Origin: Marinobacter sp.
GTDB taxonomy: Bacteria > Pseudomonadota > Gammaproteobacteria > Pseudomonadales > Oleiphilaceae
Direction: 5' to 3'
NCBI GenBank assembly: GCA_052089485.1
Contig: JBQCZX010000001.1
Coordinates: 1-63,455, forward strand
Length of the DNA: 63,455 nucleotides
The notes under the pieces are model-generated. The model searched no databases and was not told the origin of the DNA. It saw only the letters and a list, made by a program, of their open reading frames with translations. This document shows, in pieces, positions 67-12,406 of the stretch (positions are counted from its first letter, which is position 1; the number at the start of each line of letters is the position of its first letter). Position numbers and translations under genes: made by a program.

Positions 67-297
67 TCAGTTTTTGTCGCTACGTGAGAAACGGGGAACC
101 TGCTCTCCCGCCACGGTTACGCTTTCCCGGAACATGCTAAGCGGGCGCACCCACAGGCTGTGATCGCCATAGAGACAGCGGTAAACCACCAATTCTTCCT
201 CGGTTTCGCTGTGTCGGGCTATGTCGATCACCTCGTAATCCTGGCCTTTGTAGTGCTGGTAACGGCCTGGGCGGATTTCATTTTTGCTATCAGTCAT
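67..297 (-). CDS. DUF1653 family small protein
   Basis: GRYQHYKGxxYEV...HSETEEELVVYRCLYG...LWVRPLSMF signature; ATG at 297 preferred over the TTG at 321. Confidence 0.85.
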   Translation of the reverse strand: MTDSKNEIRPGRYQHYKGQDYEVIDIARHSETEEELVVYRCLYGDHSLWVRPLSMFRESVTVAGEQVPRFSRSDKN

Positions 298-317
298 GCG
301 GTGTTTTCCCCGTAATT

Positions 318-752
318 TCAAAGATGGCGAATGTCCGAGTACATCGGCAGTAGCTGTCTAATCAGCCGGTTTTGTGCGGCTGTGGGTATCTGGTTCGCCT
401 CCATGGCCAGAATAAGGTTTTCGGCCAGGGCATTAAACTGGGTGTTGGTGATGCCCATGGCTGCGTGGGCTTCCCGAACGTCGCGCCCCGAATACTGGCA
501 AGGGCCGCCACTGATTTCACACAACTGATCGGTAAGATTGCGATGGAACTGAGCAACATTTATACCTTTGAATTGGTGATTGATGCGTTCGTCATCCACG
601 ATGAGGTAGAGCATGTCTTCAACCACATTTGCGATTCCTTCGCGTTCTCCCAGTTGCAGGTACAGGCTGTTGTCCCGCTGGCTTTGAAAGCTCTGACAGC
701 CACCCAATACCAGGCCTGTCATCATCATGAGCACGGCAACGTATGACTTCAT
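318..752 (-). CDS. Group I truncated haemoglobin, predicted lipoprotein
   Basis: SLYxxLG, GGPxxYxGR and EAH (proximal His) motifs of trHbN; N-terminal signal with lipobox LGGC; alternative start at 767. Confidence 0.88.
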   Translation of the reverse strand: MKSYVAVLMMMTGLVLGGCQSFQSQRDNSLYLQLGEREGIANVVEDMLYLIVDDERINHQFKGINVAQFHRNLTDQLCEISGGPCQYSGRDVREAHAAMGITNTQFNALAENLILAMEANQIPTAAQNRLIRQLLPMYSDIRHL

Positions 753-769
753 TCTGCTCCGGCCCATGG

Positions 770-1669
770 TCAGAAACTCCCCTGCAGAGACAGATAAACA
801 CCCTGCTGATCCGTTAGCGTGGCTATGTCGCCAAGATTAACGAAGGCCGCGGTTACCGCAAGCCGGCGGTCGGGCACCCAAGCCACGAATACATCCCACC
901 AATCGTCTTCGCGGGCAAAACTCAGGTTGTCCGGCTTTTGGCGGTATTCGGCGCCCACCAGCCATTGCCGGTTAATAAACACGCCAACACCGGCTTCGGC
1001 CATGATTTCATAGCCGTTGTTCAGGTCGCCGCCGAAGCCCAGCAGCCCGCCTTGGTTGGCACGGGTGCCCCTTGCGGTGGCATTCACTAATAGATTGCGG
1101 CCAAATACTGCGGCAAAAAATACCTTAGAGCCGGAGATATAGACATCTGTGCCGCTGTCATCTCGGGCGCCTATAGCGTTGGGCACTGTGAAGTCCCGCT
1201 GTCGTTTGTGTTGTACGCCGGCAGACCATTGGCCCCAGGGGCTGTAGAGAACATCGCCGGCCAACCGTACTTTTACGCCGAGGATGTCCTGGTTGAGTTC
1301 ATCCTGCTCCAGCCCAAAGCCGTCTTTGAGGGTAAACACCAGGCTATCTAAATCCAGGGTCTGGCGCGCTACGGTCACTTCAACCCGGTTGTTCCAGTTT
1401 AAGCCGGCGCCGGTAACTGAAAGCGTATAGTCATCCACTTCGGCCCGGCTCAAGGCAACGGTGCCACCCCACTCTTCATCATCAGCGTAGCTGCCAAGCA
1501 TAGCCCAGGGCACCAACCCGCCGCCGGCGCTGCCTTCTATGGTGGTTACGCCACCGGTTGCCCAAATGCGGCTGCCAACATCTGCCCAGGCTAAAGGTGT
1601 GGCAAGAAGCCCCAAGGCCAGCATTGGAACGAACGCGCCGGCCCGCAGCGTGTTGATAAAAAGTGTCAT
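770..1669 (-). CDS. DUF3034 family protein, predicted outer-membrane beta-barrel
   Basis: ATGGVTTIEGSAGGGLVPWA and EYRQKPDNL motifs; signal peptide; amphipathic strands; C-terminal YLSLQGSF. Confidence 0.85.
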   Translation of the reverse strand: MTLFINTLRAGAFVPMLALGLLATPLAWADVGSRIWATGGVTTIEGSAGGGLVPWAMLGSYADDEEWGGTVALSRAEVDDYTLSVTGAGLNWNNRVEVTVARQTLDLDSLVFTLKDGFGLEQDELNQDILGVKVRLAGDVLYSPWGQWSAGVQHKRQRDFTVPNAIGARDDSGTDVYISGSKVFFAAVFGRNLLVNATARGTRANQGGLLGFGGDLNNGYEIMAEAGVGVFINRQWLVGAEYRQKPDNLSFAREDDWWDVFVAWVPDRRLAVTAAFVNLGDIATLTDQQGVYLSLQGSF

Positions 1670-4023
1670 GAAGAATGCTCCGGCGTAATGTCGGCCAGCT
1701 CTTGCCGGCGCTCGGCAATAGTTAAGGCGGTTTGCGTAAGGTCATTTGCAGAAACCGGACGGCCCAGATAGAAGCCTTGGCCAACATTGCAGCCCCAGGA
1801 TTGTAGCAATTTCCAGGTGTCCAGATTCTCGATACCTTCTGCAACAACCTTTAGGCCAAGGCCGTGGGCCATATCGATGGTGGATTTTACAATCAGCTGA
1901 TCCTGGGGCTCTGTATTCAATTTGAGTACAAAGGATTTATCTATTTTCAATTCCTGTACCGGCAATTTGCGCAGTTGCGACAGCGAGGAATAACCGGTGC
2001 CAAAGTCGTCTATAGATAAAGTCACCCCCAACTCTCGCAAGCGGTTCAGTGTCGTCATGGCCTCTTCTGGGTCGTCCATTAAGGCGCTTTCTGTGACCTC
2101 CAGGGTGATGCGCTCCATGGCGTGGTGCCAGTCGGCAAAAATAGCGGCTACGCGCTCGGTCAGCATAGGCCAGGTTAGATCCATTGCGGACAGGTTGATC
2201 GCCACGCCTGCATCCAGGCCCTTGCGAAACCAAGCGCGGGCATCACTGGCAACCCGCTGCAGGATATGATTCGTCAGGTCGTGGATTTGCCCGGACTGTT
2301 CCGCCAGAAAGATGAACTCCTCCGGTGAAATAAAACCCAGCTCCGGGTGTATCCAGCGCACCAGCGCCTCCACTTGAAGCAGCCGCCCGGTGCGGTTGTC
2401 CAGCTTGGGTTGATAGCTCATATGCAGGCCACCCAGCTGGATGGCGCTGTGCAGATCGGAGATCAACTTCAGTTCACGCAGGTGGTTCTCGTCTTGCCCC
2501 GGTTCGTACCGAGTGACTGCAAAGCCTTGTTGGAGCGAACGCTCGAAGGTTAGATTGACACGCCTTCTCAGCTCATTGGCATTGCAGGCATCGCTTGGTA
2601 GCTGCAATGTTATCAAGGCAGCGCGTAGTGAAAACGGCGTATTGTCGATATTCAGGGGCGATTCAACGGCTTGATGCAGAGCCTTCGCTCGCTGCTCCAG
2701 CGCTTCAGGGCTGTGCACCGCAACCATGGCCAAAAACTCGCTACCACCGGTGCGTGCAATCAGGCTGGCATCCGGGAGCTCTTTACGCAGTCGCTGTGAC
2801 AGGCCCAGCAGGATTTTATCGCCGAACTCAATGCCAAGAGTGTCGTTGATGTTGGAGAGGTCGCTCACTCGCAGGCCTATCAGGCAACAGGATATGCCGG
2901 CGTTAAAACCTTCCAGCGCTGATTGCATTAGAGCGTTGCGGTTGCTCAGCTCGGTTACTTCATCATGGGTTGCGGCATGGCGGATTTCTGCCTCACGTCG
3001 CGTAAGGCGGGCCAGTGTATCCCGCAGCGCGTTGCGCAGTTGTCGTAACTCACTGCCGGCGCGGATGTTGGGCGCTTGTGGGTTACGACCTTCCCCTACA
3101 GCCCGAGCGTAGCGGGCAAGTTGCAGTACTGGTCGGCCCAGATGCCTTGCCATAAGCAGGGCCAGCAGTATTGCCAGCGCCATAATGGCTGTCACCAGCA
3201 GAGCTATTTCCAGCGCTCGGCTGTAGTAGTTTTGCAGGCTGGCCTCTCGGCTGATCATCAAAACCGCCTCGAAGTCGCCTTGTCTGGATGCCCCGAGGTT
3301 CAGCGTGCGAGTGAAGTAGCGGGCGCTTTCTATAAAGTTTTGGCTTCCTGCAGGTTCGAGTAGCTCTGGCTCTGCGGCGCCGTTGATGTCGGCAGATGCC
3401 GCGATGCTGGTGAACGTGCCTGGATCATTCGCACTCGAGCGAAAAATAACTGAGCTGCCGCTGAGCCTGGCAATAGTGTTTGCCAGCTCTTGATCCAACT
3501 CAAAACCTGCGACCAGCCACGCCCGCAATCCGGGTGCTTCTACCGGAGTAACAAGCACTTCGTAGCCACGCTGATCAATGGTTAGGAGCGAACGGTCAGC
3601 GCCATTTTTGCGGGCATTAGCAAGCTGAGCAGGCGTAATGTCGGGCAGAGCCTGGGATAACGTGGAGGCCAGAAGCTCGCCTTGGCGATTCAGCAGCAGC
3701 GCAAAATCTGCCTCTGCGCGCCCAGAGTGATTTTCCAGGGTGCTGCTGAGGGTCCCAGGATCGCGGCTGGCGACCGCAGAGCGGAAACCGAAGTCGCGAA
3801 CAACGATGCTCAGACGGGAGAGTTCGAGATCAGTGCGGCGCTCGATCACCTCATGGGTAATACGTTCGGCTATGCTGAGCTGTTCCAGGGCCCGGAGTTT
3901 TTCATCTTCGAACAGGTACACCATTAGCAGCGCGCCGATCAACAGGCTCACCGAGGCAACCAGAGCAACCATAGCCGTAACCAAACGGCCGCGAAACCCT
4001 ATGCGGTGAGCAAAACGAACCAT
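1666..4023 (-). CDS. Membrane-bound GGDEF(degenerate)-EAL c-di-GMP phosphodiesterase with periplasmic Cache-like and HAMP domains
   Basis: Two TM helices flank a periplasmic domain; HAMP; GGSEF replaces GGDEF; intact EALVRW, EVTES, DDFGTGYSS, ELKID and AEGIE. Confidence 0.9.
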   Translation of the reverse strand: MVRFAHRIGFRGRLVTAMVALVASVSLLIGALLMVYLFEDEKLRALEQLSIAERITHEVIERRTDLELSRLSIVVRDFGFRSAVASRDPGTLSSTLENHSGRAEADFALLLNRQGELLASTLSQALPDITPAQLANARKNGADRSLLTIDQRGYEVLVTPVEAPGLRAWLVAGFELDQELANTIARLSGSSVIFRSSANDPGTFTSIAASADINGAAEPELLEPAGSQNFIESARYFTRTLNLGASRQGDFEAVLMISREASLQNYYSRALEIALLVTAIMALAILLALLMARHLGRPVLQLARYARAVGEGRNPQAPNIRAGSELRQLRNALRDTLARLTRREAEIRHAATHDEVTELSNRNALMQSALEGFNAGISCCLIGLRVSDLSNINDTLGIEFGDKILLGLSQRLRKELPDASLIARTGGSEFLAMVAVHSPEALEQRAKALHQAVESPLNIDNTPFSLRAALITLQLPSDACNANELRRRVNLTFERSLQQGFAVTRYEPGQDENHLRELKLISDLHSAIQLGGLHMSYQPKLDNRTGRLLQVEALVRWIHPELGFISPEEFIFLAEQSGQIHDLTNHILQRVASDARAWFRKGLDAGVAINLSAMDLTWPMLTERVAAIFADWHHAMERITLEVTESALMDDPEEAMTTLNRLRELGVTLSIDDFGTGYSSLSQLRKLPVQELKIDKSFVLKLNTEPQDQLIVKSTIDMAHGLGLKVVAEGIENLDTWKLLQSWGCNVGQGFYLGRPVSANDLTQTALTIAERRQELADITPEHSS

Positions 4024-4688
4024 CAGAGTTCCCGAAAGCGATTCTGGAGGTGATCCATCGGGCTTTCGTGGCGAGTCTCTGGCACCAACTCAATATTTAC
4101 GGTTTCTGTGGCGGCGCTTGTCAGGCTGGAGGAACGGATCTCTCGAATAACCGGCTTACTGTTATTCGGTAGGCGGGGGTGCCAGATATTCAAGCTCAGC
4201 GAGCTAGGTGCTTGAGCTACGCCGAAGTCCAGCGCGAGGGTTACCTCCCCCTGTTCATTGGTTTGCCCAATGGCACGGGTATCTGCCACGACAATGAACG
4301 CCTGCATGTGATCGTGAATATTGCAGCCAAGTTCGACAATACCCGGTTGATCAAACACCACGGGTGCTTCGGGTTCATCCGCATAGAGCGCAAGATCAAA
4401 GGTTTTTGCCGGCGAAAATGAATAGACGTGGTGGTGCGTGTTGTCCCGGTTGGGGAAGCTCACATTGGAGCCTGCAGGCAAAATCAGCACGTGGGGATGG
4501 AACATGCGATCTTTTTGAACCACTTCTGCCTGCACAGGAGAAGCGTGGCTGCCGTCATTCAGATACACCACCGCGCCGGTCAATGGGCCAGTGCCTTTAG
4601 CGCTTTGCAACCGCACTGTTAGCTCCTCGGACAACACAGGAGCGGACAACAGACATCCTGCCAGGAGCAACGTTGTTTGTTTTCTCAT
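4023..4688 (-). CDS. Secreted cupredoxin-domain protein ('methylamine utilization protein'-like)
   Basis: Signal peptide MRKQTTLLLAGCLLSAPVLS; FPNRD..HHVYSFS and CNIHDHM type-1 Cu ligand set; ATG at 4688. Confidence 0.85.
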   Translation of the reverse strand: MRKQTTLLLAGCLLSAPVLSEELTVRLQSAKGTGPLTGAVVYLNDGSHASPVQAEVVQKDRMFHPHVLILPAGSNVSFPNRDNTHHHVYSFSPAKTFDLALYADEPEAPVVFDQPGIVELGCNIHDHMQAFIVVADTRAIGQTNEQGEVTLALDFGVAQAPSSLSLNIWHPRLPNNSKPVIREIRSSSLTSAATETVNIELVPETRHESPMDHLQNRFREL

Positions 4689-4738: not shown

Positions 4739-5389
4739 TCAGGCCAAACCGGAGCCCAGGGAAAAGTGGATATGATTGCGGATCAGGAGATTTTCCCAGT
4801 ACTGTCGCATCCAGTTCCAAGCGTCGTTATTCACCTCTTTAATGAAGGGGTCGAGGTTCAGTTCATAATAATCCGGCGTACCCGCGATTTGCAGCACGGT
4901 TACGGTGATGGAGTCGTCCAGCTCGTTGGCGAAAGGTTCGCCAATAAGCTCGTGGACCAGCAGATTAGCACGAGTTGCTTCTATATCGACAAGCCCGCCG
5001 GTTCTGATGGAGTGATTATTCTCATGCATCTCTTCCATCAGGCGGTGGCAAAGATAGGCGCGGATCAAAAGCCCGTCCAAGCCATCGTAGCGCACCAGAA
5101 AAGCAGACGGCTCGGTGAAGTAGCCGATGGCGGCGGTTACAAACGGATCAAACAGCTGCGCTGTGCCGGCTTCCCGGGCGCAGGCATCCACGCACTCTAT
5201 AAGCCTGGGTGCCATTTCGATGTATTCGATGGCGAACTGGAACAAACAGGAGGCTGGCTGGTAGCCCTCGATCGTGACAGCAGAGGGCAGTGCCGCTGCC
5301 TTTTCATGCAGCTGCCTCAGAAAGGTGCCCGAGCGGGCTTCCTTGCGCCGCGCGTGGTCAATGATCTCTAGGACTGCCTGTGGAGACAT
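4739..5389 (-). CDS. Hypothetical protein
   Basis: 216-aa globular-looking ORF from ATG 5389 that fills the gap between the MATE and cupredoxin genes. Confidence 0.7.
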   Translation of the reverse strand: MSPQAVLEIIDHARRKEARSGTFLRQLHEKAAALPSAVTIEGYQPASCLFQFAIEYIEMAPRLIECVDACAREAGTAQLFDPFVTAAIGYFTEPSAFLVRYDGLDGLLIRAYLCHRLMEEMHENNHSIRTGGLVDIEATRANLLVHELIGEPFANELDDSITVTVLQIAGTPDYYELNLDPFIKEVNNDAWNWMRQYWENLLIRNHIHFSLGSGLA

Positions 5390-5588: not shown

Positions 5589-6917
5589 TTACCGAGGGCT
5601 GAACCATCGGTCGTTGCGGGTGTGTGACCAGCACAGCCACCCCATGGTTACTGCGCGGGCGAGCATCAGGCATATGAGAGAGAACCAGAGCCCGTGGTTG
5701 CCCCAGCTTGTGGTTAGCCACCACACGGGCGCGAACACCCCCAGCGCCGAAAACAACATGGTGTTCTGCATGTCCCGGGTGCGTGTGGCGCCAATGAAGA
5801 CACCATCGAACAGAAAACCCCAAGCTGAGGCAAACGGCAGTAGCCATAGCCAGGGCAGGTATTGCCAGGCGGTGGTGCGCACGTCTTCAATGCCGGTCAA
5901 TAGTGCTATCAGTGTGCGGCCTCCAAAAACGAACACAATGGTCAGTAACAGCGAACCCCAGAGAGACCAACGCAGCGCGCAGCGAAATACCACAAAGAAC
6001 CGTCGTTTGCTGTTCCTGCCGACAGATTCACCGATAAGGGCCTCTGCGGCATTGGCAAAACCGTCTAAGGCATTTGAAATCAGAAGCAGAAAAGTGATCA
6101 GTACCGCATTGGCAGCCAGTATGGTGTCGCCTTGGCGGGCACCCTGAGCGGTAAAAAACGCCAGTACCAGCAGCAGGGCTATGGTGCGAACCATGATGTA
6201 GCGGTTGACTTGCAGAATGGCCAAATAGTCTGTGAGGGTTCCGAACAGTGCCCGGGTAAATTGTTGTCCATCGGGCATACGGCGCAGCACGATGGCAAAG
6301 CCAATAATTGCGGCACCGTATTCAGCGATGACCGTGGCAATGGCTACGCCTCGGCTATTCCAGCCAAATACGGTCACGAACAGTATATCCAGCAGGATAT
6401 TCAGGCCGTTGGCCACGATCAGCATAATCATCGGCCCGCGTGCGTACTGAGTGCCGATCAGCCAACCCACAAGTGTGTACTGGCACAGCACCGCCGGAGC
6501 ACTCCAGATTCTTATGGTTGCATACTCAGCCGCAAGTTCGGTGACGCTTGCGCTCGCGTTCATGAGTGCTAACCCAGTCCGGATCAGAGGTTGATGGCAA
6601 AGTATGAGCAGCAGGCCGATACCCACCGCCAGCATCACTGAGCGCAGCAGCAGGGCGACTTGGCTGAAACGGTCGCGTTTGCCCCAAGCCTGGGCGGCAA
6701 GCCCCGTGGTGCCCATGCGCATAAAGCCAAATGTCCAGTACAGAATGCTGAACAGATTGGCGCCAACTGCCACCGCACCAAGGTATTCCGGGCTCTCGAG
6801 GTGCCCCAGCACAGCGGTATCCACCAGTCCCAGCAATGGAACGGTGAGATTGGTGAGCATCAATGGCCAGGCAAGAGTCCATAAACGCCGGTCTGTAACA
6901 GACGGTTTGAAGGTCAT
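5589..6917 (-). CDS. dinF: MATE family efflux transporter (DinF-like)
   Basis: LAWPLMLTNLTVPLLGLVDTAVLGHL...FMRMGTTG; about 12 TM; ATG at 6917. Confidence 0.88.
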   Translation of the reverse strand: MTFKPSVTDRRLWTLAWPLMLTNLTVPLLGLVDTAVLGHLESPEYLGAVAVGANLFSILYWTFGFMRMGTTGLAAQAWGKRDRFSQVALLLRSVMLAVGIGLLLILCHQPLIRTGLALMNASASVTELAAEYATIRIWSAPAVLCQYTLVGWLIGTQYARGPMIMLIVANGLNILLDILFVTVFGWNSRGVAIATVIAEYGAAIIGFAIVLRRMPDGQQFTRALFGTLTDYLAILQVNRYIMVRTIALLLVLAFFTAQGARQGDTILAANAVLITFLLLISNALDGFANAAEALIGESVGRNSKRRFFVVFRCALRWSLWGSLLLTIVFVFGGRTLIALLTGIEDVRTTAWQYLPWLWLLPFASAWGFLFDGVFIGATRTRDMQNTMLFSALGVFAPVWWLTTSWGNHGLWFSLICLMLARAVTMGWLCWSHTRNDRWFSPR

Positions 6918-7124
6918 ATTCGATTTTATTCCTAAAAATTTTTGTCTGTCAGCTTTAGGTTTAGTTAATTTTCTCGCGTTTTCTGAATCTGCGTCTACAC
7001 TCAACCTCGAGGTATCTATAAGCAGGCTTTCACTCTGAGCTTCCCGGTGAATGCGAGAGCACCGGTAGAAAGCCAGAGGGATAACGCAAAATCCGGCAAG
7101 AATAACACTCTGTGGAGACACAGT

Positions 7125-8249
7125 ATGCGCGTGCACGCTCAGCGGGCAGGTGCCCTGTTAGGTGGTCTGTCGTTCCCCGCTCTGTCCCTGGCGGACTGGA
7201 CGGTAAACATGACCCCCGGGGTAACCGGCACCAGTAACGATATATTTGATCTTCACATGACCATTTTCTGGATCTGCGTTGCCATAGGTGTCGTGGTATT
7301 CGGGATTATGTTCTGGTCTATTTTCGCCCATCGCAAGTCTCGGGGCGCGAAACCTGCAAACTTTCATGAGAATACGCTGGTTGAGGTCCTATGGACGCTC
7401 ATACCGCTTGTTATTCTCGTCGTCATGGCGATCCCCGCCACCGCAACCCTGATAGATATGTACGACACCACCGAGTCTGACATAGACATTAAGGTGACCG
7501 GCTATCAGTGGAAGTGGCAGTACGAGTATATCAATGAAGATTTCGGCTATTTCTCCAACACCACAACACCACCGGATCAGATCAACAACCGTCAGGCTAA
7601 AGGCGAAAACTATTTGCTTGAAGTGGATAACGCGATGGTTATTCCTGTGGGCAAAAAGGTTCGCTTTCTGCTAACGGCAAATGACGTTATCCATTCCTGG
7701 TGGGTGCCGGCTTTCGGTGTCAAGAAGGATGCTATTCCTGGCTTTATTAACGAAGCATGGACTCGCGTGGACGAGCCCGGCATCTATCGTGGCCAATGCG
7801 CGGAGTTGTGCGGCAAAAATCACGGCTTTATGCCAGTGGTTGTAAAAGCGGTGCCGGAAGAGGAATACAACACCTGGGTTGCCGATCAGAAAGCGTCGGC
7901 TGAGAAAGAGCGTGAGCTGACTCAAAAAGACTGGACCATGGATGAGCTTATGGAGCGCGGCGAGAAAGCCTACGCAAGCGCCTGTGCAGCCTGTCACCAG
8001 GCAGATGGCAGTGGTGCGCCACCGGCATTCCCGGCACTTAAAGGCAGCGCTATTGCGACCGGAGACATGGCCGCCCACCTGGATATTGTGGTGAACGGTA
8101 AATCTGGTACGGCGATGCAGGCATTTGGCGGTCAGCTGAATGAAGCCGACCTTGCAGCCATCATTACTTACGAGCGAAACGCCTGGGGTAACAGCGTGGG
8201 TGACATGGTCACGCCAAAAGAGGTCTTCGATTACAAGAACGAACAGTAA
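7125..8249 (+). CDS. coxB: Cytochrome c oxidase subunit II with C-terminal cytochrome c domain
   Basis: DVIHSWW and CAELCGKNHGFM (CuA), CAACH heme c motif; GGAG RBS before ATG 7125. Confidence 0.96.
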   Translation: MRVHAQRAGALLGGLSFPALSLADWTVNMTPGVTGTSNDIFDLHMTIFWICVAIGVVVFGIMFWSIFAHRKSRGAKPANFHENTLVEVLWTLIPLVILVVMAIPATATLIDMYDTTESDIDIKVTGYQWKWQYEYINEDFGYFSNTTTPPDQINNRQAKGENYLLEVDNAMVIPVGKKVRFLLTANDVIHSWWVPAFGVKKDAIPGFINEAWTRVDEPGIYRGQCAELCGKNHGFMPVVVKAVPEEEYNTWVADQKASAEKERELTQKDWTMDELMERGEKAYASACAACHQADGSGAPPAFPALKGSAIATGDMAAHLDIVVNGKSGTAMQAFGGQLNEADLAAIITYERNAWGNSVGDMVTPKEVFDYKNEQ

Positions 8250-8306
8250 TCAACGTCAGATAACAGCTATCACCAGCCACAAACATTGGCGGTAACGGGG
8301 GTTTTA

Positions 8307-9890
8307 ATGAGTGCGGTTGCAGATACCCACGCCCAGGATCATCATCACGGCCCAGCTAGCGGCGTCAGCCGCTGGCTGCTGACGACTAACCACAAAGATA
8401 TCGGGACCATGTACCTGATATTCAGCTTCACCATGTTCCTCCTAGGTGGGTCCATGGCGATGGTTATCCGGGCAGAATTATTCCAGCCTGGGCTACAAAT
8501 TGTTCAGCCAGAATTTTTCAATCAGATGACCACGATGCACGGGCTGCTTATGGTCTTCGGTGCGGTTATGCCAGCGTTCGTTGGGCTGGCAAACTGGATG
8601 ATACCTCTGATGATTGGCGCGCCAGACATGGCGCTGCCTCGGATGAACAACTGGAGTTTTTGGTTGCTGCCTTGTGCCTTCCTGATTCTGCTTTCAACAC
8701 TATTCATGTCCGGTGGCGGGCCCAACTTTGGTTGGACATTCTATGCGCCTTTGTCCACTACGTACGGGCCTCCGAGTACCACCTTCTTTATCTTCGCTGT
8801 TCACATCATGGGTGTGTCGTCAATTATGGGCGCGATCAACGTGATCGCCACGGTGCTTAATATGCGAGCGCCGGGAATGACCCTGATGAAAATGCCCATG
8901 TTTGTCTGGACCTGGTTGATCACGGCGTTTCTGTTGATCGCAGTCATGCCAGTGCTGGCAGGTGTGTTAACCATGATGCTGATGGATATCAACTTTGGCA
9001 CCAGCTTCTTTAATGCCGCAGGGGGTGGAGACCCAGTCCTGTTCCAGCATGTATTCTGGTTCTTCGGGCATCCGGAGGTTTATATTATGATCCTCCCGGC
9101 CTTTGGGGCGGTATCGCATATCATTCCCGCGTTCTCCCGTAAGCGTCTATTTGGCTACGCCTCAATGGTTTACGCGGTGGGTGCGATAGCTCTGCTTTCT
9201 TTTCTGGTGTGGGCGCACCACATGTTCACTGTTGGCGTGCCTGTCGCCGGGCAGTTGTTCTTCATGTATGCCACCTTGTTGATTGCTGTGCCGACGGGAG
9301 TAAAGGTGTTTAACTGGGTGGCCACTATGTTCCGCGGTTCACTCACGTTCGAAGCACCCATGCTTTTTGCCGTCGCGTTTGTGATTCTGTTTTCCATCGG
9401 CGGTTTCTCCGGCCTGATGCTGGCGATTGCCCCGGCGGACTTCCAGTACCATGACACCTACTTCGTGGTCGCCCATTTCCATTACGTACTGGTGCCAGGT
9501 GCCATATTCGGTATCTTCGCTTCGGCATACTTCTGGCTACCGAAATGGACTGGCCATATGTATGACGAGACCCTTGCTAAAACCCATTTCTGGTTGTCGT
9601 TCATCGGGATGAACCTGGCCTTCTTCCCCATGCACTTCCTCGGACTTGCCGGGATGCCCCGCCGAATTCCGGATTACGCTCTGCAGTTTGCCGATTTCAA
9701 CATGGTATCGAGCATCGGGGCGTTCATGTTTGGTTCGACCCAGCTGTTGTTCCTTTTCATTGTTGTAAAGTGTGCCAGAGGCGGGGAAAAAGCGCCTGCT
9801 CGGCCCTGGGATGGCGCAGAGGGGCTTGAGTGGGAGATACCCTCACCGGCGCCTTATCACACCTTTACCACACCACCAGATGTGAAATAG
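8307..9890 (+). CDS. coxA: Cytochrome c oxidase subunit I (aa3 type, A1)
   Basis: TNHKDIG, WFFGHPEVY, WAHHMF, VAHFHY. Confidence 0.98.
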   Translation: MSAVADTHAQDHHHGPASGVSRWLLTTNHKDIGTMYLIFSFTMFLLGGSMAMVIRAELFQPGLQIVQPEFFNQMTTMHGLLMVFGAVMPAFVGLANWMIPLMIGAPDMALPRMNNWSFWLLPCAFLILLSTLFMSGGGPNFGWTFYAPLSTTYGPPSTTFFIFAVHIMGVSSIMGAINVIATVLNMRAPGMTLMKMPMFVWTWLITAFLLIAVMPVLAGVLTMMLMDINFGTSFFNAAGGGDPVLFQHVFWFFGHPEVYIMILPAFGAVSHIIPAFSRKRLFGYASMVYAVGAIALLSFLVWAHHMFTVGVPVAGQLFFMYATLLIAVPTGVKVFNWVATMFRGSLTFEAPMLFAVAFVILFSIGGFSGLMLAIAPADFQYHDTYFVVAHFHYVLVPGAIFGIFASAYFWLPKWTGHMYDETLAKTHFWLSFIGMNLAFFPMHFLGLAGMPRRIPDYALQFADFNMVSSIGAFMFGSTQLLFLFIVVKCARGGEKAPARPWDGAEGLEWEIPSPAPYHTFTTPPDVK

Positions 9891-9903
9891 GAGGCAGGCG
9901 AAC

Positions 9904-10494
9904 ATGGCTGAACAACCGGCAAACAAATCCGCTCCCCCGCGCAGTAATGTGCGGGTTATCGGCTGGTGCCTTGCCAGTGTGGCCGGAATGTTTGCCTTCG
10001 GTTTTGCGTTGGTGCCTCTGTATGACGTTTTCTGTGATATCACCGGCATTAACGGCAAAACCAGTGGCCGTTATGAATCTACTGAGCGCGTAGCCGCAGA
10101 CATGAACCGCACTATCAAAGTGCAGTTTCTGGCGCAGAACGGGCCTGATATGCCTTGGGTTTTTCGGCCAGTAGAACGCAGTGTTGAGGTTCACCCGGGT
10201 GAACCCACCACGGTGAATTTCTACGCCGAGAATCCAACCGGCCAGGATATGGTAGGGCAGGCGATACCCAGCCTGTCGCCATCTGAGGGCACCCTGTATT
10301 TCCATAAAACCGAGTGTTTTTGTTTTAACCAACAGCCGCTTTCAGCTGGCCAGAACACGGAAATGCCTCTGGTCTTTATTGTCGACCAGGATCTTCCCGA
10401 GCACATCACCAAACTGACACTGTCCTATACGCTTTATGATCAGGGTGAGCCACAAGCTGCCGTGAAAAACACAACAACAAACGATAATGGATAA
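9904..10494 (+). CDS. ctaG: Cytochrome c oxidase assembly protein CtaG/Cox11
   Basis: LVPLYDVFCDITG and KTECFCF. Confidence 0.95.
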   Translation: MAEQPANKSAPPRSNVRVIGWCLASVAGMFAFGFALVPLYDVFCDITGINGKTSGRYESTERVAADMNRTIKVQFLAQNGPDMPWVFRPVERSVEVHPGEPTTVNFYAENPTGQDMVGQAIPSLSPSEGTLYFHKTECFCFNQQPLSAGQNTEMPLVFIVDQDLPEHITKLTLSYTLYDQGEPQAAVKNTTTNDNG

Positions 10495-10510
10495 GCCATC
10501 GGAGAGTGCT

Positions 10511-11398
10511 ATGGCGGACTATCAGAATTACTACGTTCCCGAACAGAGCAAGTGGCCGATTGTTGCAACGGTGGGCTTAGGGGTTACCCTGTTTGGGGCA
10601 GCCTCAATTATGGTCGCCAGCAACCAGGGCGAGAGCACGAACGGCGGCTGGATGATATTTGCAGCCGGCGTGCTGACCATGATTTACATGCTGTTTGGCT
10701 GGTTTGGCAGTGTGATAAAAGAGAGCCGCAGCGGTCTTTATAGCCCACAAATGGACCGTTCGTTCCGTTGGGGGATGAGTTGGTTTATTTTCTCGGAAAT
10801 AATGTTTTTTGCGGCCTTTTTTGGTGCGCTTTTCTACGCCCGAGTGTTTGCCGTGCCCTGGCTTGGGGGGGAAGGTGACCGGGGCAGTTCCCACATGCTT
10901 TGGGAAGGTTTTCAGGCAACTTGGCCGTTGATCAACAACCCAGATCCCGAAGTCTTCCCAGCGCCACAATCGGTGATCGGAGCCTGGGGTTTGCCGCTGG
11001 TGAACACCATCTTGTTGGTTACTTCGTCGTTTACCGTAACGGTTGCGCACCATGCTTTAAAAGCAGATAACCGTAAGAAAGCGAAGATGTGGCTAGGAGC
11101 CACTATAGTGTTGGCGCTTGTCTTCTTGTTTTTTCAGGCAGAAGAGTATTTGCATGCCTATCAGGAGCTCAATCTAACGCTTCAGTCCGGCATCTACGGC
11201 AGCACTTTCTTTATGCTTACCGGCTTTCACGGTGTTCACGTAATGTTGGGCACGCTGATGTTGATCATCATGCTGATACGCATTCACAAAGGGCACTTTA
11301 CGGCAGATAGCCATTTCGGGTTTGAGGCAACGTCCTGGTACTGGCACTTTGTAGATGTGGTTTGGCTGGGCTTGTTTGTGTTTGTGTATGTCATATAG
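10511..11398 (+). CDS. coxC: Cytochrome c oxidase subunit III
   Basis: GMSWFIFSE, TGFHGVHV, WYWHFVDVVW; GGAGA RBS before ATG 10511. Confidence 0.96.
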   Translation: MADYQNYYVPEQSKWPIVATVGLGVTLFGAASIMVASNQGESTNGGWMIFAAGVLTMIYMLFGWFGSVIKESRSGLYSPQMDRSFRWGMSWFIFSEIMFFAAFFGALFYARVFAVPWLGGEGDRGSSHMLWEGFQATWPLINNPDPEVFPAPQSVIGAWGLPLVNTILLVTSSFTVTVAHHALKADNRKKAKMWLGATIVLALVFLFFQAEEYLHAYQELNLTLQSGIYGSTFFMLTGFHGVHVMLGTLMLIIMLIRIHKGHFTADSHFGFEATSWYWHFVDVVWLGLFVFVYVI

Positions 11399-11416
11399 CG
11401 CAACAATGATTGTTTA

Positions 11417-11620
11417 TCAGGGAGTCGGGTGCAGTGTCAGGCTCCCTTGCCACAGTGACAGAAGAATAACGACCAGCAGCAACACGCTGAGCGCAACCCG
11501 GAGCGCGAGGGAATTCACCACCCGATTGGTTTTGCCGCCGTCTTTGATGAGAAAAAAAAGACCGCTGAAAAGACTTACGATGACGGCGAGCATGAGAATA
11601 ATGATAAGGGCTTTGAGCAT
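11417..11620 (-). CDS. Twin-transmembrane small protein (DUF2909/HIG1-like)
   Basis: 67 aa, two TM helices, SLFSGLFFL...SLALRVALS; typical antisense position inside cox clusters. Confidence 0.85.
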   Translation of the reverse strand: MLKALIIILMLAVIVSLFSGLFFLIKDGGKTNRVVNSLALRVALSVLLLVVILLSLWQGSLTLHPTP

Positions 11621-11674
11621 AAAAAATCTCTTTGGTTTCTGTTCTGGCTGCTGCCTGATTTACTATAGCAGACC

Positions 11675-12406
11675 ATGACTGAAGCAAAGAAAAACCCTCG
11701 AAAATGGCAGGTAGACTGGCGGTTAATGGTGTTTACGGGTGCCTTTTTACCGCTTTTGGTGTGTCTGGGCATTTGGCAGCTGAGCCGAGCGGAAGAGAAA
11801 CAGGTTCTGCTTGACCAATGGCAACAGCAGGCACAAAATCTCAACTGGCCGGAACAGGTGGCCAGCGGGCTGGATAACGGCAGGCCGGTGACGGTTACGG
11901 GGCTCTACGGCGAGCGCAGCTGGTTGTTGGATAACAGAACCCGCGATGGCATGGCGGGCTACGAGGTCTTCACGGCTTTTTACCCGCTGCAGGGCCCGCC
12001 GGTTCTGATTAACCGAGGCTGGGTAGCGGCCCCAAGAACGCGCAATGAACTGCCAGACGTGGCGCCCCCTGATGGTGTATTCAGCCTGACAGGTCGAGTA
12101 GGCCAATACCCGGAACCGCCGGTTCTTTCTGGCGACACCGCACCGGCAGAAGGCTGGCCCAGGCGGGTGCAGATGCTTCCCGGATCGGTTGCAAAAGCTG
12201 AGATTGCCGACTTGCCCTCTGCTATCATCCGGCTTCAGGACAGTGAGCAGCCTGGAGCTTACCGTGCTGATTGGAAACCAGATTTGATGGGGCCGCAAAC
12301 CCACTACGGGTATGCGACTCAATGGTTTGCGCTTGCCGTGGTGCTGACTATATTGAGTGTAGTCGCGAGTTATCGAAAGACAGGATCCAATAATGATAAT
12401 GGCTAG
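11675..12406 (+). CDS. SURF1 family protein
   Basis: LGIWQLSRAEEK, LINRGWV, HYGYATQWF. Confidence 0.93.
   Translation: MTEAKKNPRKWQVDWRLMVFTGAFLPLLVCLGIWQLSRAEEKQVLLDQWQQQAQNLNWPEQVASGLDNGRPVTVTGLYGERSWLLDNRTRDGMAGYEVFTAFYPLQGPPVLINRGWVAAPRTRNELPDVAPPDGVFSLTGRVGQYPEPPVLSGDTAPAEGWPRRVQMLPGSVAKAEIADLPSAIIRLQDSEQPGAYRADWKPDLMGPQTHYGYATQWFALAVVLTILSVVASYRKTGSNNDNG

What the first reader, a model, noticed from the sequence alone, without database searches (positions are those of the whole stretch)
318..4688. Candidate envelope-spanning Cu/heme sensing system: cupredoxin, EAL phosphodiesterase, DUF3034 barrel and lipoprotein globin
Seen in sequence: four tightly packed genes (TGATG overlap at 4023, ATGA overlap at 1666-1669, 2-17 bp gap before the globin), and every product is envelope-targeted. 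They are a secreted protein with type-1 Cu ligands (His plus CNIHDHM, amicyanin-like C-x2-H-x2-M spacing), an inner-membrane Cache-like/HAMP/GGSEF/EAL protein, a predicted barrel ending in a BAM-type Phe, and a truncated haemoglobin with a lipobox. Established: characterised group I trHbs are mostly cytoplasmic, and EAL domains degrade c-di-GMP. To my knowledge DUF3034 has no assigned function. Inference: an outer-membrane-to-cytoplasm relay in which the heme and Cu proteins detect NO, O2 or redox state, or a ligand imported by DUF3034, and tune c-di-GMP. No mau genes are present, so the 'methylamine utilization' label looks misleading. This is my best candidate for an undescribed system in the window.
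Basis: partly seen in the sequence, partly recalled or inferred. Interest (0 to 1): 0.82.

Follow-up and report, generated by a model that had tools for sequence, protein, structure and literature searches.

The report
Porin-docked globin copper sensing relay
Four tightly packed genes that recur together across many proteobacteria encode an outer-membrane pore predicted to carry an exported haemoglobin on its inner face, a blue-copper protein and a membrane c-di-GMP-degrading sensor, which likely form an undescribed signal relay whose most likely, but untested, trigger is sulfide or polysulfide.

Summary
The four genes are real and form a conserved module: 35 of 50 non-redundant loci with enough flank keep all four parts. 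DUF3034 folds as a plugged 12-stranded outer-membrane barrel. It co-folds with the globin on its periplasmic turns (0.83, best control 0.00). The two are fused in two separate clades, and a globin-less barrel subfamily has lost those contact residues. The cupredoxin precedes a dCache sensor whose output is a phosphodiesterase, kinase or cyclase, so the module likely works as a sensory input (about 0.8). The ligand is unproven. The best lead is sulfide or polysulfide (about 0.4): 5 of 10 globin-less barrels lie in FisR-like/SQR/Fcc/DsrE/TusA clusters, and the lumen residues are shared. Against this, globin-type loci show no sulfur neighbourhood (2 of 83), and 17 of 22 hosts lack a type II SQR. 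I found no study of the module. This scan noted it before in two other genomes.

The parts
4023..4688 (-). Exported type-1 copper protein: an amicyanin-like cupredoxin inserted in a second beta domain with a conserved WHP motif; a homologue is annotated 'methylamine utilization protein'
   Evidence: ligands invariant in 51 of 51; closest solved relatives: C-terminal cupredoxin domain of copper nitrite reductases 6hbe and 9cck, then 5fc9 and amicyanin; annotation of a homologue
4305..4325 (-). C122-x2-H125-x2-M128 copper-ligand loop (the fourth ligand H86 is at 4431-4433)
1666..4023 (-). Inner-membrane sensor TM-dCache_3-TM-HAMP-GGDEF(GGSEF, degenerate)-EAL; predicted active c-di-GMP phosphodiesterase
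2734..2748 (-). Degenerate GGSEF site (GGDEF is intact in 15 of 32 EAL-bearing homologues)
770..1669 (-). DUF3034: signal peptide, N-terminal segment predicted to plug the pore, 12-stranded outer-membrane beta-barrel, C-terminal Phe
   Evidence: (pLDDT 85.1, pTM 0.83)
1244..1258 (-). Periplasmic turn 2 (G109-D110-V-L-Y113, mature numbering), a predicted globin contact that is deleted in 10 of 10 globin-less barrels
318..767 (-). Exported group N subgroup 2 truncated haemoglobin; lipoprotein in this genome; apolar pocket (B10 Leu, E7 Phe, E11 Leu, G8 Leu); proximal His101
696..707 (-). Lipobox LGGC24
   Evidence: a lipobox is present in 27 of 74 family members by a crude pattern
498..521 (-). 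C83-x6-C90 pair (CEISGGPC), invariant; likely a periplasmic disulfide or a redox/persulfide site
   Evidence: 74 of 74; the role is inferred

Best explanation
The four genes encode a conserved envelope module that likely works as a signal relay: the DUF3034 barrel is predicted to admit a small redox-active solute, most likely sulfide or polysulfide, to a haemoglobin predicted to dock on its periplasmic mouth, and the blue-copper protein would carry the resulting electron to the dCache domain of the membrane phosphodiesterase and so set c-di-GMP. Step 1 (shown): linkage, domain content, and invariant copper and haem ligands. Step 2 (predicted, with three lines in agreement): the globin binds the barrel's periplasmic turns through helices G and H, the face where the short ligand tunnel of group N globins opens. 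Step 3 (inferred): the ferric, apolar-pocket haem binds the ligand and is reduced; the two invariant cysteines may take part. Step 4 (inferred from gene order): the cupredoxin re-oxidises the haem and binds the sensor's conserved periplasmic helices, which carry no Cys and no conserved His of their own. Step 5 (established for EAL domains): c-di-GMP hydrolysis changes, with effects on biofilm or motility. I put the relay architecture alone at about 0.8; the confidence figure below is for the whole statement, including the sulfur ligand.
For: Linkage: of 83 globin-type barrels (70% identity clusters), 60 of 62 with room have the globin within 1.2 kb and 35 of 50 have all four parts. Gene pairs survive rearrangement: the cupredoxin is followed directly by the dCache sensor in 45 of 55 cases. 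Output swap: the same dCache-HAMP input carries GGDEF-EAL, a Ser/Thr kinase (L068, L071, L106, L161) or a class III cyclase (L197). A second version uses a short cupredoxin and a four-helix-bundle-type sensor with a histidine kinase or EAL (L129, L130, L133, L186, L218, L221), and L114 and L219 have an ECF sigma with RskA. Complex: co-fold score 0.83, best of 3 controls 0.00; the mark was reached by 116 of 157 solved and 2 of 215 mismatched pairs; runs agree in at least 93% of contacts; partner pLDDT at least 91. Signal peptide-globin-barrel fusions: L109, P0121, P0123, P0124, P0136 and, in a separate clade, P0182. Interface positions conserved in globin-type barrels are kept at 0.09 in globin-less barrels, against 0.69 for other conserved positions. 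Sulfur lead: 5 of 10 globin-less representatives lie beside SQR, FccB, DsrE or TusA genes and a PAS-sigma54 activator. Seven such loci have the activator with C-x10-C-x6-C; the first gap matches FisR C53/C64 (PMC8614764). A sigma54-type site precedes 5 of 13 globin-less and 3 of 183 globin-type barrels. SoxZ is found in 8 of 10 globin-less hosts against 1 of 10 globin-type hosts. A globin-type barrel that has lost its globin sits between two SfnB genes (L134). Charged residues E16, E68, K104, K126, R171, E196, E212, R214 and D230, which I place in the lumen from strand alternation, are at least 90% conserved in both subfamilies. Low-polarity haem pockets favour stable haem-H2S complexes (PMC9926313).
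Against: The sulfur link comes from the other subfamily. Only 2 of 83 globin-type representatives had any of seven sulfur seeds within 3.5 kb, and one of these is a gene 3.4 kb away in Thioalkalivibrio. A Pfam scan of 102 flanking ORFs showed unrelated housekeeping genes. A type II SQR was found in 5 of 22 module-bearing genomes (4 of the 5 are same-order kin; class background 31 of 400), so 17 of 22 lack it with this query. Five of 10 globin-less representatives have no sulfur neighbour, and globin-less L231 has none either. The two subfamilies are one split on a quick tree (support 88), so the loss of the interface is a single evolutionary event. Some positions differ between subfamilies (Q74, Q98, R106, S265). 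The apolar pocket is a trait of the whole TrHbN-2 clade (PMC11904497), not a sulfide signature, and H2S itself crosses membranes without a pore. Seven of 50 loci have barrel and globin with no cupredoxin or sensor within 3.5 kb. Cupredoxin-sensor and cupredoxin-globin contacts were not modelled. The co-fold used my own alignments and a haem, which is outside the calibration.
Confidence: 0.4

Rival explanations
1. Same relay, but the signal is nitrite or NO: nitrite enters through the barrel, the ferrous globin binds NO or reduces nitrite with electrons from the cupredoxin, and the sensor reads the result.
For: The apolar pocket predicts low O2 affinity (PMC4720485; 73 of 74 lack a polar E7), as in NO-selective haem sensors (recalled). 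The best solved matches of the cupredoxin profile are the tethered cupredoxin domains of copper nitrite reductases. The barrel resembles the KdgM and NanC channels.
Against: No denitrification or NO-response genes among the flanks scanned. No NsrR- or FNR-like site in 20 of 20 upstream regions (patterns recalled). The match to nitrite reductases reflects the general cupredoxin fold. The only specific neighbourhood signal in the barrel family is sulfur.
Confidence: 0.2
2. The barrel is only an outer-membrane anchor; the globin and cupredoxin report O2, peroxide or the general periplasmic redox state.
For: Gases need no pore. The lipobox is optional (27 of 74), so the barrel could be the tether. 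The one studied TrHbN-2 reacts with peroxide (PMC11904497). One genome has its two barrel genes flanking a Crp/Fnr regulator and HemN (L167). The window has a cytochrome oxidase operon 2.4 kb away (names from my reading of the translations).
Against: The plug and charged residues are conserved even in barrels that have no globin to anchor, which points to a channel function. A lipid anchor alone would suffice as a tether.
Confidence: 0.2
3. Two separable units that merely travel together: barrel plus globin as an uptake, storage or detoxification device, and cupredoxin plus sensor as an independent copper or redox sensor.
For: Barrel and globin occur without the other two in 7 of 50 loci; L161 has cupredoxin, kinase and barrel but no globin nearby; the two pairs are often divergent or convergent.
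Against: All four stay within 3.5 kb in 35 of 50 loci through many rearrangements. A different cupredoxin with a different sensor type has been recruited beside the same barrel-globin pair.
Confidence: 0.12
4. The barrel is a FapF- or autotransporter-like secretion channel that exports or displays the globin at the cell surface.
For: The best structural match is FapF (Z 19.5, rmsd 3.0, 213 aligned). The fusions have passenger-barrel order.
Against: KdgM, NanC and COG4313 score within about 2 Z units. The predicted contacts are all on periplasmic turns. A lipidated, likely disulfide-bonded globin is a poor passenger for a plugged 12-stranded pore (inference).
Confidence: 0.05
5. The cupredoxin is the electron acceptor of an amine dehydrogenase, as its automatic label suggests.
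For: Amicyanin-like ligand loop; this genome has two TTQ dehydrogenase clusters.
Against: Those clusters are on other contigs and each has its own c-type cytochrome gene. 0 of 5 other module-bearing genomes have the light chain.
Confidence: 0.03

Closest known systems
YfiBNR of Pseudomonas aeruginosa (search listing and abstract starts of PMC2837407, PMC3375315, PMC4887326)
   Same: Outer-membrane component, periplasmic protein and inner-membrane c-di-GMP enzyme in one operon
   Different: YfiB is a lipoprotein that sequesters YfiR, and the output is a cyclase; there is no barrel, haem or copper. Here the outer part is a channel with a docked globin, and the output is a phosphodiesterase or is exchanged.
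TrHbN-2 globins, e.g. Shewanella benthica SbHbN (PMC11904497, passages)
   Same: Hydrophobic B10/E7/E11/G8, Cys at E16, 2/2 fold
   Different: SbHbN constructs in the PDB are 116-residue globin-only chains, and its two cysteines are too far apart to pair. This family is exported, has an invariant second Cys in the EF loop and a conserved Q-N133-x-L-L patch on helix H at the predicted interface.
12-stranded outer-membrane channels FapF, KdgM/NanC, COG4313
   Same: Strand number; an N-terminal segment aligns with FapF and COG4313
   Different: 7-12% identity; none is known to me to bind a haem protein; the cargo differs or is unknown
Cyc2-rusticyanin chain of acidophilic iron oxidisers (recalled, not checked here)
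   Same: A haem domain joined to an outer-membrane barrel that hands electrons to a type-1 copper protein
   Different: c-type haem, a larger barrel and a respiratory end point; here a b-type globin and a signalling end point
FisR-controlled sulfide oxidation operons (PMC7315123, PMC8614764, passages)
   Same: The globin-less DUF3034 subfamily sits next to a sigma54 activator with FisR-like cysteine spacing and SQR-type genes
   Different: The passages I saw name no outer-membrane barrel in these operons, and the window's globin-type module is not in such an operon
Haem gas sensors linked to c-di-GMP (H-NOX, NosP, DosC/DosP; recalled) and cable-bacteria periplasmic globin-cytochrome fusions (PMC11976967, passages)
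   Same: Haem protein coupled to c-di-GMP; precedent for periplasmic truncated globins
   Different: The first are cytoplasmic; the second are multihaem fusions proposed as oxidases; neither has a barrel or a cupredoxin

Membership tests
Group N (group I) truncated haemoglobin | 2/2 fold signature with Phe CD1, His F8 and both GG-type motifs | tested here: met
   F66, H101, G87-G88; colinear with M. tuberculosis HbN
TrHbN-1 (NO dioxygenase type) | Tyr B10 with Gln E7 or E11 | tested here: not met
   One search lists no Tyr among the 72 B10 residues shown of 74, and no Gln at E7 or E11
TrHbN-2 | Hydrophobic B10, E7, E11, G8 | tested here: met
   L53, F74, L78, L114; definition from PMC11904497
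TrHbN-2 | Haem binding and low O2 affinity | not testable with these tools
   needs purified protein
Type-1 copper cupredoxin | His...Cys-x-His-x-Met ligand set in a cupredoxin fold | tested here: met
   51 of 51; profile hits amicyanin and pseudoazurin
mau (methylamine utilisation) system | Linked to, and co-occurring with, TTQ dehydrogenase genes | tested here: not met
   unlinked in G000; 0 of 5 other module genomes
Active EAL phosphodiesterase | EAL, N, E, DDFGTGYSS, K, EGxE and QG motifs | tested here: met
   activity itself not measured
Active diguanylate cyclase | GG(D/E)EF site | tested here: not met
   GGSEF in the window; intact in 15 of 32 homologues
Named c-di-GMP enzymes in NCBIfam (DibA, GepA, DosP, HmsP, LapD and others) | Score above the curated cut-off | tested here: not met
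   all named enzymes far below cut-off; only the generic GGDEF domain model passes
Outer-membrane beta-barrel channel | Signal peptide, even number of strands, C-terminal aromatic residue | tested here: met
   12 strands, C-terminal Phe
FapF, KdgM or COG4313 family | Sequence-level family membership | tested here: inconclusive
   fold match only at 7-12% identity; Pfam and the Atlas give DUF3034 alone
YfiBNR-type system | YfiB-like outer-membrane lipoprotein, YfiR, and a cyclase output | tested here: not met
   No such Pfam or NCBIfam match for the three accessory proteins; the YfiN model scores 80 against a cut-off of 325
FisR-type sulfide regulon | Adjacent cysteine-bearing sigma54 activator and SQR genes | tested here: not met
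   Met for 5 of 10 globin-less barrels, but no FisR-like hit at any globin-type locus

The most novel reading that the evidence does not exclude
DUF3034 is the outer-membrane channel for sulfide or polysulfide. In sulfur oxidisers it feeds SQR and Fcc directly. In heterotrophs it has gained a docked haemoglobin and a blue-copper relay, forming a porin-globin receptor that converts extracellular reduced sulfur into c-di-GMP, kinase, cyclase or sigma-factor signals.
Probability: 0.35. Interest if true: 0.9.

Novelty: categorically new. Interest (0 to 1): 0.78.

Why it matters
A haemoglobin docked on an outer-membrane channel, with a blue-copper protein wired to exchangeable signalling outputs, is a receptor design I could not match to any described system. 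It would give a function to DUF3034 and to an exported branch of the little-studied TrHbN-2 globins, and it would correct a misleading 'methylamine utilization protein' label. If the sulfur lead holds, it names a candidate pore for how sulfide or polysulfide crosses the outer membrane, and a route by which marine and soil heterotrophs sense reduced sulfur outside the cell. The family is in about 5-6% of sampled proteobacterial genomes (19 of 301, 22 of 400, 10 of 401), and the main predictions are easy to test.

Tried and rejected
A single-sequence fold of the barrel failed (pLDDT 31.6); the alignment-based fold was used instead. The Atlas search with a homologue returned only DUF3034 clusters. 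A PDB sequence search with the single cupredoxin gave nothing significant. RNA run search: no RNA holder listed. Promoter and terminator scans were at chance level, and no FNR- or NsrR-like site was found upstream of 20 cupredoxin genes (one sigma54-like hit). Apparent cupredoxin-sensor fusions (P0275, P0276, P0277, P0284) were rejected: the linkers look frame-shifted or deleted and three of the four are single-member clusters. L130 (kinase running into a short cupredoxin) is a single case and was not counted. P0122 looks like read-through of two genes. The flanking genes 4739-5389 and DUF1653 co-occur only in Marinobacter-like loci and were left out of the module. Searches of the orders of six globin-less hosts added one new locus, because those orders hold 1-4 genomes each. 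The careful tree did not finish; the quick tree is quoted. Literature: 'DUF3034' gives 3 papers; two were checked and are incidental, and the third is the journal version of one of them (listing only). Searches combining methylamine utilization protein, truncated hemoglobin, cyanoglobin, cupredoxin, diguanylate, c-di-GMP and sulfide listed no study of the module. (a Pseudoalteromonas locus tag recalled from memory) was too loosely set to say anything. PMC4319818 (part 3 of 9) concerns a group II globin, and PMC1457004 was irrelevant. Subscription papers are not searched and no supplements were read, so the EAL gene may appear in a c-di-GMP knockout screen that I did not see.
Full report
OBSERVATION. 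The window's closest relatives are Marinobacter records. They encode a 221-aa exported cupredoxin, a 785-aa TM-dCache_3-TM-HAMP-GGDEF-EAL protein, a 299-aa DUF3034 protein and a 149-aa globin with the lipobox LGGC. No named NCBIfam enzyme family is reached. The cupredoxin, barrel and globin are single-copy in this 82%-complete genome.

CONSERVATION. DUF3034 was found in 19 of 301, 22 of 400 and 10 of 401 sampled genomes and in 0 of 14 control genomes. I took 202 near-full-length barrel loci, dropped short duplicates of the same places, and clustered them at 70% identity into 93 representatives: 83 'globin-type' and 10 'globin-less', assigned by which profile scored higher. The globin-less profile was built from 8 loci first noticed for lacking partners, so that class is partly circular; five later members (L174, L175, L176, L182, L254) were assigned by sequence alone and also show no globin. 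Among globin-type representatives, 60 of 62 with room have the globin within 1.2 kb. Of 50 with 3.5 kb on both sides, 38 have a cupredoxin, 36 a sensor and 35 all four parts. All loci were found through the barrel; the reverse direction was not surveyed. Named examples include Marinobacter, Pseudomonas, Alteromonas, Thioalkalivibrio and Silanimonas, Caballeronia and Novosphingobium.

TWO PAIRS, MANY OUTPUTS. Order and orientation vary, but barrel and globin stay adjacent, and the cupredoxin is followed directly by the dCache sensor in 45 of 55 cases. That sensor carries GGDEF-EAL in most loci, a Ser/Thr kinase in L068, L071, L106 and L161, and a class III cyclase in L197. A second version pairs the same barrel and globin with a short cupredoxin and a four-helix-bundle-type sensor ending in a histidine kinase or EAL. 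L114 and L219 have an ECF sigma with RskA. Keeping the input and swapping the output is what a sensory module does (inference). The sensor's conserved periplasmic residues (D77, F80, A85, D88, T91, S94, L96, R102; 37-43 of 43) include no Cys or His, which suits a protein-binding surface. Its EAL motifs are intact, and the window's GGSEF is degenerate.

BARREL AND GLOBIN. With a 58-row alignment, DUF3034 folds at pLDDT 85.1 and pTM 0.83 into 12 strands after an N-terminal segment. The best matches are FapF (Z 19.5, rmsd 3.0, 213 aligned), KdgM (18.2), NanC, VhGalP and COG4313 (17.4) (Foldseek agrees on FapF). Co-folding with the globin and haem scored 0.83, against 0.00 for the best of three controls. 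The mark was reached by 116 of 157 solved and 2 of 215 mismatched pairs; the runs agreed in at least 93% of contacts and partner pLDDT was at least 91. The counts hold only roughly because I supplied the alignments and a haem. Barrel contacts (4-7, 34-37, 65, 110-113, 156-163, 203-205) are the N-terminus and the short turns, which strand parity places in the periplasm (my reading). Globin contacts lie mainly on helices G and H, around N133 (71 of 74); the short tunnel of group N globins exits between these helices (PMC4720485, passages). Two checks agree. First, signal peptide-globin-barrel fusions exist in reversed gene order (L109, P0121, P0123, P0124, P0136, P0182) and fall in two clades that each contain unfused members (quick tree). 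Second, 7 of the 8 interface positions conserved in globin-type barrels are lost in globin-less barrels (mean retention 0.09 against 0.69 for 116 other positions). The second check is one evolutionary split, not many.

THE GLOBIN. C83, C90 and H101 are invariant in 74 of 74; B10, E7, E11 and G8 are almost always apolar. This is the TrHbN-2 pattern, predicted to give low O2 affinity (PMC4720485 and PMC11904497, passages). By a crude rule, 70 of 74 have a signal-like hydrophobic stretch and only 27 a lipobox, so export is the rule and lipidation is optional.

THE CUPREDOXIN. Its four ligands are invariant (51 of 51); the nearest solved domains are the cupredoxin tails of copper nitrite reductases and amicyanin. 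This genome has two amine-dehydrogenase clusters on other contigs, each with its own cytochrome, but 0 of 5 other module genomes have the light chain. The methylamine label can be set aside.

THE LIGAND. The only specific neighbourhood signal in the family is sulfur. Five of 10 globin-less representatives, from five orders, adjoin SQR, FccB, DsrE or TusA genes and a PAS-sigma54 activator; the SQR calls rest on sub-cut-off NCBIfam matches. Seven loci have that activator with C-x10-C-x6-C. FisR of Cupriavidus forms a C53-C64 tetrasulfide (PMC8614764, passage) and activates sulfide-oxidation operons (PMC7315123, passages); the third cysteine is recalled. Sigma54-like sites precede 5 of 13 globin-less and 3 of 183 globin-type barrels (redundancy not removed). 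SoxZ was found in 8 of 10 globin-less hosts and 1 of 10 globin-type hosts (G878 has both types and is counted with the first). L134, a globin-type barrel without globin, lies between two SfnB genes. The plug and most charged residues are shared by both subfamilies, and low-polarity pockets favour stable haem-sulfide complexes (PMC9926313, passages). Against this: only 2 of 83 globin-type representatives have a sulfur seed nearby; the 102 of 226 candidate flank ORFs that I scanned are heterogeneous (some of the others were scanned); and a type II SQR was found in 5 of 22 module hosts against 31 of 400 in the class sample, mostly among close kin. Sulfide or polysulfide is therefore the leading guess (0.4), with nitrite/NO and O2/redox as live rivals.

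MECHANISM. Shown: composition, linkage and ligand residues. Predicted: barrel fold and barrel-globin docking. Inferred: solute passage, haem binding and reduction, electron transfer to copper, and cupredoxin-dCache contact. Established for the family: c-di-GMP hydrolysis by EAL.

COMPARISON AND NOVELTY. It works like YfiBNR in spanning the envelope, and like Cyc2-rusticyanin (recalled) in joining a barrel-bound haem to a blue-copper protein, but it is a member of neither. Ten paper searches listed no study of the module; subscription papers and supplements were not seen. Two earlier notes of this scan describe the same four-gene set in other genomes; they agree but are not independent support. 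The short texts shown do not mention the docking evidence or the sulfur lead, and a word search for that link found no finding holding all the words.

VERDICT. A real, widespread and apparently undescribed module. Relay architecture about 0.8; full mechanism with a sulfur ligand about 0.4. Interest 0.78.

Noticed in passing
L164 4375-9424, L165, L166, L168, L169, L170, L174, L182, L254: Globin-less DUF3034 subfamily in clusters of a PAS-sigma54 activator with FisR-like cysteines and DsrE, TusA, SQR or FccB genes, across five orders (L174 shows only DsrE, L182 and L254 only the activator); a candidate outer-membrane sulfur channel in its own right.
   Followed up: yes
L134 4682-8794: A globin-type barrel without globin lies between two SfnB sulfur-acquisition monooxygenase genes (both above the TIGR04022 cut-off).
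   Followed up: partly
G000:C9:38014-42919 and G000:C44:5209-10106: Two similar TTQ amine-dehydrogenase clusters, each ending in a mono-haem cytochrome c gene; no type-1 copper motif was seen in the ORFs listed.
   Followed up: partly
G000:C109:7266-8504 and G000:C41:17513-18775: Two SQR-like genes (94% identical), each beside sulfite-reductase-like genes; the type II label is my reading.
   Followed up: partly
L111 631-10203: Tandem duplication: cupredoxin-sensor, then two barrel-globin pairs and a second cupredoxin.
   Followed up: no
L167 5120-10309: One genome holds both barrel types 3 kb apart, separated by a Crp/Fnr regulator and HemN.
   Followed up: no
L130 3326-5455: A histidine kinase ORF runs in frame into a short cupredoxin with its own signal-like segment; the two are separate genes in L129.
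   Followed up: no
L019, L040, L156, L157, L158, L244: The sensor gene is split in several genomes while the neighbours are mostly intact; decay or assembly error not resolved.
   Followed up: no
window 7047-12406 (+) and 5589-7136 (-): Genes that read as a cytochrome c oxidase operon and a MATE-type transporter lie just upstream, divergent from the module; names from my reading, not scanned.
   Followed up: no
window 4739-5389 (-) and 67-321 (-): A 216-aa gene with no Pfam match 50 bp upstream and a DUF1653 gene just downstream are on the same strand and may share the transcript, but only in Marinobacter-like genomes.
   Followed up: partly
P0199, P0248, P0254, P0271: Deep-branching DUF3034-like barrels with a different N-terminus; genomic context not seen.
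   Followed up: no
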